A DNA stretch of 64,000 bases from Escherichia coli (GTDB lineage Bacteria > Pseudomonadota > Gammaproteobacteria > Enterobacterales > Enterobacteriaceae): assembly GCF_003019035.1 (NCBI RefSeq), contig NZ_CP027447.1; one strand, 5' to 3'. Made by a program: the position numbers. This document shows, in pieces, positions 26,801 to 29,800 of this stretch (positions within the stretch are counted from its first letter, which is position 1; each line of letters opens with the position of its first letter).

Positions 26801-29800
26801 TTTCATATCACCGTTCACTGCCACCAGCAGCGTTTTGTAGACCTGATCCGGATTCAAACCTAATTTTTTGACGACTTCATCGCCAAAATTGGTTTCAGCC
26901 GGATCGTGCTCGTAGGTATGGATTTGAAACGAAATCTTGTTTTTTTCGAGTAATTTAACTGCGGGTGTCATGGTAATTTTCCTGCCTTAAACAAAAAAAC
27001 GAAGCAAGCATACGCCTGATGGCGGTCCAAAAAAAAGAGTCATCTTGCCTAAGAGTATTGGCAGGATGGTGAGATTGAGCGACAATCGAGTTACACCGTC
27101 GCTTAAAGTGACGGCATAATAATAAAAATATGAAATTCCTCTTTGACGGGCCAATAGCGATATTGGCCATTTTTTTAGCGCAACATCTGCGGCAAATTCC
27201 CTTCTCCATACAGGTGTAGTGCACCGACTGCGACCACATAGCGCCCCGGCGGCATGGCGCATAATTTGTCCCGCCAGGCGAGATTTCGCTGATGCATCAG
27301 CACATCGTACAGCGACTGACTGAACGTATTAGGCAGCGTTATTTCATTATTTTGCGGCGGCGCATTCAGCCACCAGCTCATCATTTGTTGCAGCAACCGT
27401 GCATTGGTGTGCCAGTGGGTCAGCGTATCGTCCAGCAGCGCCAGTCCGTTGTCAGGGAGCTGGAGCAACATGGCAATCTGGTTTTCTGCCCCTTCCAGTT
27501 CAATCACGGGTTTATGTTGTTGCTTCGCCGCCTGCAATAGCTGGTAATCGATACCATATTCTGCCCGCAGCCCCAGTTTTTGTGCCTGCGTCGCCTGAAG
27601 AACCATCGCGATTTGCCACAGCGGTTGGGTAGAAAAGAGCGACGGAGAAATGCCCATCTCCTGGCTAATGTGCTGCAGGTTTTGTAATTGCTCCTCGCTA
27701 ATGCGCTCTTCCAGCGCCTCGCAGGCAGGCAAATTAGCAAAAGGCGTATCGCTGGTGGAAACATCCGCCTCGACGATCAGCGCATCGGCGTTTTTGAGCT
27801 TTTTGAGCAAACGGGTGGGCAGGGGAGCCATATCGTGGCTACCCATATGAATACTGCCGAGCAGATGAAAATGGCGATTGCCGGGAAGAGAGATATCGAT
27901 AGCAGGCCAGGTGTAATGATTACCGCGCAGCGCGGCCCAAAGCGTTTTTACCCGGTACAACAGATCCATACGACCTCCCTTTGTGAAATATCATGCTAGC
28001 GCGCGGGGAGGGATGGCGCAAATGGAGTTGATTGTCGCACTTGTGCACAGTGCTTGTGTGCATTACAATAATTAAACAATGGACAAGGAGATGAGAATGG
28101 AATGGCTCAAAAGAATAATATAAGGAGTTTTCGTGATGCCTGGCTGGCTGATTTTTTTGTCCATTCAACGCCACATCGAAAGATCCCTGCTGAAATCCAT
28201 ACCACGTTATCACGAAAGTTGGACATCATTAATGCTGCCACTTCTCATCGGGATTTACGCTCCCCTCCGGGGAACCGATACGAAGAGTTGTCCGGGAAAT
28301 TACAGGAATATTCCTCCATTAGAGTGAATAAACAGTACCGACTGATATTTAAATGGGTTAATGGCAAGGCCGAAGAATTGTTTTTAGACCCACACAACTA
28401 CTAAAACATAGCTGTCGTATTGACGAGAAAGGTAAAACCATGAAACAGGCAACAAGAAAACCGACGACACCCGGAGATATTCTTCTCTATGAATATCTGG
28501 AACCGCTCGATTTGAAAATCAATGAGTTAGCAGAGTTACTGCATGTTCATCGTAATAGCGTCAGTGCACTGATCAATAATAATCGTAAACTCACCACTGA
28601 AATGGCATTCCGTCTGGCGAAAGTTTTTGATACCACAGTCGATTTTTGGCTAAACCTCCAGGCGGCAGTTGATCTTTGGGAAGTTGAAAACAACATGCGT
28701 ACCCAGGAAGAATTGGGACGGATTGAAACAGTGGCTGAATATTTGGCACGCCGTGAAGAGCGTGCAAAAAAGGTCGCGTAGAATAATTTCCCTATAACGG
28801 ATGCGCCACCCTAAAGCAGTGCATCCGTAATGATGTACTTATTCCTTCGGTTTAAATCGCAGCAATCGGTTGGCGTTACTCACTACGGTAATCGACGAGA
28901 GCGCCATTGCCGCTCCGGCAACCACCGGGTTAAGCAGCGTACCGGTGAACGGCCACAAAATACCGGCGGCGACCGGAATACCGATACTGTTGTAGATAAA
29001 CGCACCGAGCAGGTTCTGCTTCATATTGCGCAGCGTTGCGCGGGAAATCGCGAGCGCATCCGCAACACCCATCAGGCTATGGCGCATCAGGGTAATCGCC
29101 GCGGTTTCAATGGCAACATCACTGCCGCCACCCATCGCAATACCGACATCCGCCTGAGCCAGCGCTGGCGCGTCGTTAATGCCGTCGCCCACCATTGCCA
29201 CCTGACGTCCTTCACTTTGCAGACGTTTGATCGCTTCGGCTTTACCGTCCGGCAGCACCCCAGCTATCACCTCATCAATCCCTGCTTCTTTGGCGATCGC
29301 ATTGGCGGTGGTTGGGTTATCCCCGGTCAACATCACCAGACGATATCCCGCTTTATGCAGGCGTTGCAGTGCCGCCACGCTATCACTACGCAACGGATCG
29401 CGTACAGCCAGCAGGGCTACCGCTTTCCCGTCAACCGCCAGCAGCACAGGCGTTGCCCCTTGCGATGCCTGAGCTGAAATATCTGCTTCAATCGCTTTAG
29501 TATCAACTTGCTGGTCATTTAACAGCGCCTGATTACCCAGCAATAACGCATGACCTTCAGCTTCACCGCTTACGCCCAGCCCGCGCAATGTGCGGAAACC
29601 GTTGACCTGCGGCAGCTGCATATCGCCTGCTTTATCGAGGATCGCTCGTGCCAGCGGATGGCTGGAACCTTGCTCCAGTGCCGCCGCCAGACGCAATGCC
29701 TGCGCTTCATCAACATCAGCAAACGTTTTCACTGCGACAACCTGCGGCTTCCCTTCGGTCAGCGTCCCGGTTTTATCGAACACGACGGTATCGAGTGTAC

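What the first reader, a model, noticed from the sequence alone, without database searches (positions are those of the whole stretch)
28102..28404. Intact HigB-like toxin ORF directly upstream of ybaQ (HigA-family HTH): candidate toxin-antitoxin pair
ybaQ is usually annotated as a lone HTH regulator. The 100-aa ORF 35 bp upstream has a strong Shine-Dalgarno and a RelE/ParE-like sequence pattern in the toxin-first order typical of higBA. If it is unannotated or decayed in reference genomes, this could be an overlooked or strain-specific intact TA module.
Basis: partly seen in the sequence, partly recalled or inferred. Interest (0 to 1): 0.5.

Follow-up and report, generated by a model that had tools for sequence, protein, structure and literature searches.

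The report
Known higB-1/ybaQ toxin–antitoxin pair
The 100-codon gene just upstream of ybaQ is a real, intact HigB-type toxin paired with the YbaQ antitoxin, but RefSeq already annotates it and a 2020 essentiality study described it, so it is a known strain-variable feature.

Summary
Window 28102-28404 (+) is an intact 100-aa ORF, 35 nt upstream of ybaQ. It matches Pfam HigB-like_toxin over its full length (E=3e-32). Its nearest solved relative is the P. putida toxin GraT (E=2e-15). The AlphaFold model (pLDDT 90) superposes on P. vulgaris HigB (TM 0.81-0.88).

YbaQ is a HigA-family antitoxin (TIGR02607, E=1e-30; identical to PDB 2EBY). A conserved four-half-site palindrome, GCAC-N4-GCAC-N-GTGC-N4-GTGC (28037-28061), overlaps the predicted -35 hexamer and spacer. 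It recurs upstream of the toxin in all 18 paired loci examined, and also in phage-plasmid D6.

The pair is not new. PGAP annotates the toxin in RefSeq (WP_000057541.1). Rousset et al. (bioRxiv 10.1101/2020.05.25.114553) named it higB-1. They showed that ybaQ is essential only in B2/F strains carrying higB-1, except CFT073, where it is truncated, and that ybaQ knockdown derepresses it.

Among 5,426 complete E. coli genomes, 1,266 carry the toxin segment and 4,833 carry ybaQ. K-12-type strains do not hold a decayed copy: an unrelated 76-nt stretch replaces the 409-bp segment. Nissle-type strains carry a 1-nt frameshift in a T7 run. Verdict: genuine, ordinary, already known.

The parts
28031..28439 (+). 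Strain-variable segment holding the promoter/operator, higB-1 and the higB-ybaQ spacer. It is present in 1,266 of 5,426 complete E. coli genomes. In K-12-type loci an unrelated 76-nt stretch takes its place.
28037..28061 (.). Putative YbaQ operator: the four-half-site palindrome GCAC-TTGT-GCAC-A-GTGC-TTGT-GTGC.
   Evidence: The consensus TGCACTTGnGCACnGTGCnnnnGTGCnnTAnnnT is found upstream of the toxin in all 18 paired loci aligned and in phage D6. There is a single match in the 64-kb window at up to 2 mismatches, against 0.06 expected by chance. The K-12 locus has no match at up to 3 mismatches. Binding by YbaQ is inferred, not shown here.
28041..28069 (+). Predicted sigma-70 promoter of the operon: -35 TTGTGC (28041-28046), 17-nt spacer, -10 TACAAT (28064-28069). 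The operator covers the -35 hexamer and the spacer.
   Evidence: Read directly from the sequence. TTG and TA...T are conserved in the 18-locus alignment. The consensus scanner chose a neighbouring register, TGCACA-17-AATAAT at 28044-28072. Neither has been mapped experimentally.
28085..28090 (+). Shine-Dalgarno AAGGAG, 11 nt upstream of the higB-1 ATG.
28102..28404 (+). higB-1: intact 100-aa HigB/GraT-type toxin of the RelE superfamily (RefSeq WP_000057541.1).
28152..28158 (+). T7 homopolymer inside higB-1. It is shortened to T6 in the Nissle 1917 allele; PGAP also flags the 04-00955 copy as frameshifted.
28440..28781 (+). ybaQ: 113-aa HigA-family HTH antitoxin and repressor. A weak Shine-Dalgarno-like AAAGG at 28428-28432 lies 7 nt before its ATG.
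28818..28839 (+). Terminator-like hairpin after ybaQ, the likely 3' end of the bicistronic transcript. It overlaps the last base of the convergent copA ORF (28839-31343, minus strand).

Best explanation
This is the chromosomal type II toxin-antitoxin operon higB-1/ybaQ, in the toxin-first order typical of higBA.

- **Toxin.** HigB-1 is a RelE-superfamily endoribonuclease of the HigB/GraT subfamily. It most likely cleaves mRNA on the ribosome (inferred from family and fold).
- **Antitoxin.** YbaQ is a HigA-type helix-turn-helix dimer. It neutralises the toxin by direct binding (inferred from the GraTA and HigBA structures).
- **Autoregulation.** YbaQ represses the operon by occupying a four-half-site palindrome that overlaps the -35 hexamer and spacer of the promoter. 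The operator is inferred here; repression was shown genetically by Rousset et al.
- **Why ybaQ is essential.** When YbaQ is depleted, the toxin is both derepressed and freed. That explains why ybaQ is essential only in strains with an intact higB-1.
- **Origin.** The two-gene module is mobile. It also occurs in prophages, phage-plasmids and other chromosomal sites. In most E. coli it has been reduced to an orphan ybaQ, and in some to nothing.
For: **Family and fold**
- Pfam HigB-like_toxin E=3e-32 over the full length.
- GraT (6f8s_B) E=2e-15 by sequence and 6.4e-20 by profile.
- AF2 model pLDDT 90.3, pTM 0.82.
- Foldseek top hits are all P. vulgaris HigB (TM 0.81-0.88, rmsd 1.4-1.8 A), then GraT at 41% identity, then RelE/YoeB/YafQ.

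**Active site**
- D96 and H98 align with HigB D90 and H92 (5ixl alignment).
- R74, R80 and Y100 are invariant and H98 nearly invariant across 35 homologues.

**Antitoxin**
- TIGR02607 HigA E=1e-30; PDB 2EBY; GraA E=3e-10.

**Pairing**
- All 14 YbaQ homologues found outside the ybaP-copA site have a HigB homologue immediately upstream.
- So do the Salmonella prophage, C. koseri, K. aerogenes and phage D6 copies.

**Operator**
- Conserved in all 18 paired loci aligned and in D6, despite unrelated flanks.

**Selection**
- Window versus the ST131 allele: 4 synonymous and 1 nonsynonymous change in higB.
- The YbaQ protein is identical in the window, ST131, K-12 and Nissle, with 3-8 synonymous differences between strains.

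**Experiment (literature)**
[quoted passage not shown] It is not essential in CFT073, where higB-1 is truncated.
Against: - No direct toxicity or RNase assay of this protein was found in the searchable literature.
- Two of the four residues critical in P. vulgaris HigB (PMC5027501) differ here: His54 aligns with Glu61, and Tyr91 aligns with Pro97. Both replacements are conserved across the subfamily, and the Glu is shared with GraT.
- The NCBIfam RelE/StbE and YoeB models score below their cutoffs.
- The Shine-Dalgarno sequence is 11 nt from the start codon.
- The operator assignment rests on conservation alone.
Confidence: 0.9

Rival explanations
1. Same TA pair, but it behaves like P. putida GraTA rather than classical plasmid HigBA. 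The toxin would mainly disturb ribosome biogenesis in a temperature-dependent way. Its N-terminus would make the toxin-antitoxin complex a de-repressor rather than a co-repressor.
For: - GraT is by far the closest solved relative: E=2e-15, against 0.02 for P. vulgaris HigB, and 41% against 26% identity in the structural alignment.
- The RSPPGNR-E-LSG and IRVN-Q-RL-F-W motifs are shared with GraT.
- GraA is also a clear relative of YbaQ.
- GraT properties are taken from PMC6393540 and the abstract of PMC6410093.
Against: - AF2 predicts a confident helix at residues 13-21 (block pLDDT 94) and low confidence only for residues 1-3. GraT's first 22 residues are disordered.
- The operator sequence (GCAC/GTGC half-sites) differs from GraA's TAACGTTA.
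- Under the conditions of Rousset's screen, ybaQ depletion was lethal or strongly deleterious. That suggests stronger toxicity than the mild, cold-dependent effect of GraT.
Confidence: 0.25
2. The ORF is intact but the protein is enzymatically inert, a toxin gene early in decay. YbaQ would then act here, as in K-12, simply as a transcription factor.
For: - His54 and Tyr91 of P. vulgaris HigB are replaced by Glu61 and Pro97.
- The gene is lost or frameshifted in most E. coli.
Against: - The Glu and Pro are conserved subfamily features, not private mutations.
- 4 synonymous changes against 1 nonsynonymous between alleles.
- ybaQ is essential in strains with higB-1, except where higB-1 is truncated.
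Confidence: 0.04
3. The main role of the pair is anti-phage abortive infection rather than self-maintenance or addiction.
For: - Close homologues ride on a P22-like prophage in Salmonella, next to a gene with a Tad2-like domain.
- Close homologues also ride on phage-plasmid D6.
- By general knowledge, many type II TA systems defend against phage.
Against: - The toxin has no match in PADLOC-DB and the antitoxin has only marginal hits.
- On D6-like phage-plasmids the obvious role is plasmid or prophage maintenance.
- No phage data exist for this pair.
Confidence: 0.1

Closest known systems
E. coli higB-1/ybaQ as described by Rousset et al. (bioRxiv 10.1101/2020.05.25.114553)
   Same: Same gene at the same position, between ybaP and ybaQ, in B2/F-type strains. 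The window allele differs from the ST131 (B2) allele by 5 nt and one residue, N5K. RefSeq protein WP_000057541.1 is encoded in a strain whose 951-bp region is 100% identical to the window.
   Different: Nothing of substance. The window carries the allele shared at 99.8% or more with the strain named ST648, MS6198 and IMT16316, rather than the S88/B2 allele studied.
GraT/GraA of Pseudomonas putida (PDB 6F8S, 6F8H; PMC6393540)
   Same: Closest solved structures for both partners. Toxin-first order, HigA-type folded HTH antitoxin, shared RSPPGNR-E-LSG motif and C-terminal His. The operator has several half-sites that could hold two dimers.
   Different: About 41% identity over the ordered core. 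The N-terminus is predicted to be helical rather than disordered. The operator sequence differs: GCAC/GTGC against TAACGTTA. The window toxin runs 2 residues past the conserved His, ending ...DPHNY.
HigB/HigA of Proteus vulgaris plasmid Rts1 (PDB 4MCT, 4PX8, 4YPB; PMC5027501)
   Same: Best structural match (TM 0.81-0.88). Same Pfam family. Asp90 and His92 equivalents are present (D96, H98).
   Different: Only 25-27% identity. The equivalents of catalytic His54 and Tyr91 are Glu61 and Pro97.
orf70/orf71 TA module of Escherichia phage-plasmid D6 (NC_050154) and about 92 related plasmids
   Same: Toxin 80% and antitoxin 78% identical. Same gene order and same operator, ATGCACTTGCGCACAGTGCAACGGTGCGCTATAGT.
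   Different: It sits on a P1-like phage-plasmid among tail genes, so it is an addiction module of a mobile replicon and not a fixed chromosomal locus.
Orphan ybaQ of E. coli K-12 (b0483; PDB 2EBY), called a solitary antitoxin by RASTA-Bacteria in 2007 (PMC2374986)
   Same: Identical YbaQ protein (WP_000806442.1), at the same place between ybaP and copA.
   Different: No toxin and no conserved operator. It has a different 76-nt upstream stretch with its own promoter-like site. K-12 also has about 260 bp of extra repeats before copA.

Membership tests
HigB-like toxin family (Pfam PF05015, RelE superfamily) | Significant full-length match to the family HMM | tested here: met
   E=3e-32, 111 bits, query 9-98 against model 2-91 of 91. 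PHROG 3066 E=1.6e-32.
HigB-like toxin family (Pfam PF05015, RelE superfamily) | RelE/microbial-RNase fold: N-terminal helices packed on an antiparallel sheet | tested here: met
   AF2 pLDDT 90.3 with helices H13-21, H30-45, H49-53 and strands E70-74, E79-86, E89-97. Foldseek TM 0.81-0.88 to P. vulgaris HigB, followed by GraT, RelE, YoeB and YafQ. This is a prediction, not a solved structure.
HigB-like toxin family (Pfam PF05015, RelE superfamily) | Catalytic residues of P. vulgaris HigB (His54, Asp90, Tyr91, His92; PMC5027501) | tested here: inconclusive
   Asp90 and His92 align with D96 and H98, so they are retained. His54 aligns with E61 and Tyr91 with P97. E61 is invariant in the subfamily, P97 is the consensus residue, and the Glu is shared with GraT. 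The active site is therefore a variant of unknown competence.
Type II toxin-antitoxin system, higBA type | Toxin gene first, with a HigA-type HTH antitoxin immediately downstream in one operon | tested here: met
   35-nt gap with no terminator or promoter consensus in it. YbaQ matches TIGR02607 at 105 bits against a cutoff of 47.7. The pairing is conserved in 14 of 14 loci outside the ybaP-copA site.
Type II toxin-antitoxin system, higBA type | The toxin inhibits growth and the cognate antitoxin neutralises it | not testable with these tools
   The literature gives indirect genetic support: ybaQ is essential in B2/F strains that carry higB-1, except CFT073, where higB-1 is truncated. No direct expression assay was found.
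Type II toxin-antitoxin system, higBA type | The antitoxin autorepresses the operon through a palindromic operator in the promoter | tested here: inconclusive
   A conserved four-half-site palindrome overlaps the predicted -35 hexamer and spacer in all 18 paired loci aligned. ybaQ knockdown overexpresses higB-1. Direct binding to this site has not been tested.
RelE/StbE subfamily (NCBIfam TIGR02385) and Txe/YoeB (TIGR02116) | Score above the curated cutoff | tested here: not met
   16.6 bits against a cutoff of 27.9, and 19.2 against 51.8. The ORF is not a member of these sister subfamilies.

The most novel reading that the evidence does not exclude
The orphan YbaQ kept by about two thirds of E. 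coli could be a domesticated 'anti-addiction' or immunity factor. Having lost its toxin and its ancestral operator, it would be expressed constitutively. It would neutralise the roughly 80%-identical HigB toxins brought in by D6-like phage-plasmids and P22-like prophages, and would repress their shared operator. That would change how such elements establish, persist or are lost. Strains like this window, with the intact pair, would instead be addicted to their own locus.
Probability: 0.15. Interest if true: 0.45.

Novelty: already known. Interest (0 to 1): 0.12.

Why it matters
This pair is a clear example of a core-genome gene (ybaQ) whose essentiality depends on an accessory neighbour (higB-1). 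That point has already been made in the literature. For annotation, it confirms that this strain carries a live toxin, so ybaQ should not be treated as dispensable here.

- the four locus states, with counts of toxin and ybaQ carriage in 5,426 complete genomes;
- the shared junction, which suggests one loss event common to K-12-type E. coli and cryptic Escherichia clades;
- the T7 slippage site behind the frameshifted allele in Nissle 1917;
- an explicit conserved operator, also present on D6-like phage-plasmids.

Tried and rejected
1. **K-12 decay hypothesis.** I looked for a frameshifted remnant of the toxin in K-12 and found none. The 409-bp segment is missing and a 76-nt stretch stands in its place.
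2. **Is the 76-nt stretch a diverged higB promoter or spacer?** A collinear 16/25 resemblance to the operator is not significant. 34 of 500 shuffles and 110 of 300 shuffles reach the observed score. blastn-short finds the stretch only in other toxin-less loci: L013, L014 and L018, plus a 23-nt remnant in L006. I do not claim homology.
3. **NCBIfam.** The toxin gave only sub-threshold RelE/YoeB hits. Those subfamilies are rejected.
4. **PADLOC.** No defence-system model matches the toxin.
5. **YbaQ ChIP-exo motif (Gao et al. 2018).** I wanted to compare it with the operator, but the supplement is not held and the main text does not give the motif.
6. **Generic repeat finder.** It missed the operator because the arms are only 4-6 nt long. 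A custom script and cross-locus alignment found it.
7. **One alignment call failed** on a mis-framed metagenome locus and was rerun without that locus.
8. **Rfam.** No RNA family lies inside 27970-28840. The nearest is sroB at 27093-27176.
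Full report
**1. Observation**

The window around the finding reads ushA (+), ybaK (-), ybaP (-, 27175-27969), the ORF in question (+, 28102-28404), ybaQ (+, 28440-28781) and copA (-, 28839-31343). AAGGAG lies at 28085-28090, 11 nt from the start codon. Two out-of-frame ATGs (28091, 28097) lie in between, so the ribosome-binding site is strong in sequence but not ideally spaced. Between the two genes the consensus scan finds no terminator and no promoter. The only terminator-like hairpin is at 28818-28839, after ybaQ. The two genes therefore look like one transcription unit.

**2. What the ORF is**

- Pfam HigB-like_toxin (PF05015) matches residues 9-98 against model positions 2-91 of 91, E=3e-32. 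PHROG 3066 'toxin of TA system' gives E=1.6e-32.
- NCBIfam RelE/StbE and YoeB models score below their cutoffs. The protein belongs to the HigB branch, not those sister branches.
- Against solved structures, the best sequence match is 6F8S chain B, the P. putida toxin GraT: E=2e-15 alone and 6.4e-20 with a 35-sequence profile. P. vulgaris HigB follows at E of about 2e-5 with the profile.
- An AlphaFold2 model built on the 35-sequence alignment has mean pLDDT 90.3 and pTM 0.82. Foldseek places it on P. vulgaris HigB (TM 0.81-0.88, rmsd 1.4-1.8 A), then GraT (41% identity over the ordered 68 residues), then RelE, YoeB and YafQ.
The fold is as predicted.

**3. Active site**

Schureck et al. (PMC5027501) found His54, Asp90, Tyr91 and His92 critical in P. 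vulgaris HigB. In the HMMER alignments, D96 and H98 of the window protein align with Asp90 and His92. Glu61 aligns with His54, and Pro97 with Tyr91. Across 35 homologues, E61, R74, R80 and Y100 are invariant, H98 is nearly invariant, and P97 is the consensus residue. GraT carries Glu at the same position as E61. This looks like a conserved variant active site, not decay. Its chemistry is untested.

**4. The partner**

YbaQ matches TIGR02607 (HigA family antitoxin) at 105 bits against a cutoff of 47.7. It is identical to PDB 2EBY and is related to GraA (E=3e-10) and other HigA structures. The YbaQ protein is the same RefSeq entry, WP_000806442.1, in SCU-301, K-12, ST131 and Nissle. Its gene differs between strains only by 3-8 synonymous changes. 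higB differs between the window and the ST131 allele by 4 synonymous changes and 1 nonsynonymous change, N5K. Both genes therefore appear to be under purifying selection, though the numbers are small.

**5. Operator and promoter**

Upstream of higB lies GCAC-TTGT-GCAC-A-GTGC-TTGT-GTGC (28037-28061), followed by TACAAT (28064-28069). TTGTGC at 28041-28046 sits 17 nt upstream of the TACAAT.

I aligned the upstream regions of 18 toxin-bearing loci. They came from E. coli, E. albertii, cryptic Escherichia, Salmonella (in a prophage), Citrobacter, Klebsiella aerogenes, Kluyvera, Enterobacter, Trabulsiella, Erwinia and Sodalis, each with unrelated flanks. All 18 carry TGCACTTGnGCACnGTGCnnnnGTGCnnTAnnnT, 57-92 nt before the start codon. 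Phage D6 carries it too. The pattern occurs once in the 64-kb window at up to 2 mismatches, against 0.06 expected by chance.

I infer that this is the YbaQ operator and that it occludes the -35 hexamer and spacer. The interleaved half-sites could hold two dimers, as in GraA (PMC6393540). That last point is speculation.

**6. Already known**

RefSeq/PGAP annotates the ORF as 'type II toxin-antitoxin system RelE/ParE family toxin' (WP_000057541.1) in strain SCU-301, whose 951-bp region is 100% identical to the window. It annotates ybaQ as 'HigA family addiction module antitoxin'.

Rousset et al. (bioRxiv 10.1101/2020.05.25.114553) report the following:
- ybaQ is essential in 5 of 18 E. coli strains. 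[quoted passage not shown]
- The higB-1 promoter contains the YbaQ binding motif of Gao et al. 2018.
- higB-1 is absent from most phylogroups, including K-12, and both genes are lost in phylogroup D.

RASTA-Bacteria had already called K-12 YbaQ a solitary antitoxin in 2007 (PMC2374986).

**7. Distribution found here**

In 5,426 complete E. coli genomes:
- The toxin-specific 409 bp (28031-28439) occurs in 1,266 genomes, always once and always on the chromosome.
- ybaQ occurs in 4,833 genomes.
- By subtraction, about 3,570 genomes are ybaQ-only and about 590 have neither gene.

Four locus states were seen:

| State | Examples | Evidence |
|---|---|---|
| Intact pair | window, SCU-301, ST131 | |
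| Frameshifted toxin | Nissle 1917 (T7 run at 28152-28158 shortened to T6); 04-00955. PGAP marks both 'frameshifted' | |
| ybaQ only | K-12, O157:H7, W | |
| Both genes gone | TUM13867 | |

TUM13867 keeps 23 nt of the K-12-type upstream stretch. This suggests the order pair, then orphan, then none.

The window allele is shared at 99.8% or more with the strain named ST648, MS6198, IMT16316 and others. From general knowledge that ST648 belongs to phylogroup F, the window probably comes from a phylogroup F background. The B2 alleles (ST131, 536, UTI89) are 96.8-97.5% identical.

**8. K-12 comparison**

K-12 matches the window up to 28030 and again from about 28432. In between it has 76 nt instead of about 401 bp. 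That stretch shows no significant similarity to the window segment or to any toxin-bearing locus. It has no operator match at up to 3 mismatches. It does contain its own promoter-like site, TGGAGA-17-TATGAT.

The same 76-nt junction is present in the GTDB E. coli representative and in two cryptic Escherichia species, at 92-96% identity. The toxin-less configuration is therefore old, or has spread by recombination. Every YbaQ homologue outside this site is paired with a toxin (14 of 14). ybaQ must therefore have arrived as part of a pair, so the orphan state is derived. This agrees with Rousset et al. Where the 76 nt came from remains unexplained.

**9. Mobility**

The module sits in different neighbourhoods in different hosts:
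- a P22-like prophage in Salmonella (ninX, a RecA-dependent nuclease, a gene with a Tad2-like domain);
- next to a MerR_2/DnaJ gene pair (cbpA/cbpM-like by domain content) in C. koseri;
- after a Usp-domain gene and before an ATP_bind_3 gene in K. aerogenes;
- among tail genes of the P1-like phage-plasmid D6, with toxin 80% and antitoxin 78% identical;
- on about 92 plasmids at 80-90% toxin identity; the listed ones are mostly 75-95 kb, from Salmonella and E. coli.

This is typical type II TA behaviour. It also raises the untested idea that the widespread orphan YbaQ cross-neutralises incoming copies.

**10. Verdict**

The ORF is real, intact and a bona fide HigB/GraT-type toxin that forms a type II TA operon with YbaQ.

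- *Inferred:* ribosome-dependent mRNA cleavage, direct neutralisation by YbaQ, and the identity of the operator.

It is already annotated and already published, so novelty is nil and interest is low.

Noticed in passing
window 28091-28123: Two out-of-frame ATGs (28091, 28097) lie between the Shine-Dalgarno sequence and the higB-1 start. They open a 10-codon mini-ORF (MRMEWLKRII*) that overlaps the start. AAGGAG is 6 nt from ATG 28097 but 11 nt from the real start. An 'ATGGAATG' arrangement recurs in several homologous loci but not in the ST131 allele. It may dampen toxin translation, or it may be coincidence.
   Followed up: partly
L002 (K-12) 3130-3205, against window 28031-28439: In toxin-less E. 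coli and cryptic Escherichia, a conserved 76-nt stretch of unknown origin replaces the toxin segment. It has no significant similarity to the window or to any paired locus, and it lacks the operator. A strain lacking both genes (L006, 1641-1663) keeps 23 nt of it.
   Followed up: partly
L028 (E. albertii), about 2090-2130: The start region of the E. albertii toxin homologue carries four tandem ATGACCA heptamers, giving ATGs in different frames. It looks slippage-prone and may act as a phase-variable start.
   Followed up: no
L007/L008 (Salmonella) 4001-4700 and flanks: An 81%-identical toxin with its antitoxin sits inside a P22-like prophage. Within about 1.5 kb lie a gene whose product has a Tad2-like domain and a RecA-dependent nuclease gene.
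   Followed up: no
L030 (phage D6) 2501-3212; L031: Phage-plasmid D6 and about 92 plasmids carry the same module: toxin 80% and antitoxin 78% identical, with the same operator. Cross-talk with chromosomal YbaQ is plausible but untested.
   Followed up: partly
window 28782-28838, against L002 3548-3862: K-12 has about 260 bp of REP-like repeated sequence between ybaQ and copA. The window lacks it and has a 57-bp spacer instead.
   Followed up: no
window 27093-27176 (+): Rfam finds the sroB sRNA between ybaK and ybaP (81 bits against a gathering score of 44). This is a known gene in its usual place.
   Followed up: no
window 13400-13464 (+): Rfam finds the DnaX ribosomal frameshifting element (95.8 bits). 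This is a known feature.
   Followed up: no
L005 (strain HS-02) 1501-2262: This is the one outlier: 94% identity, the toxin annotated as a 78-aa 'hypothetical protein' and ybaQ extended to 123 aa. It is probably indel errors in the assembly rather than biology.
   Followed up: no
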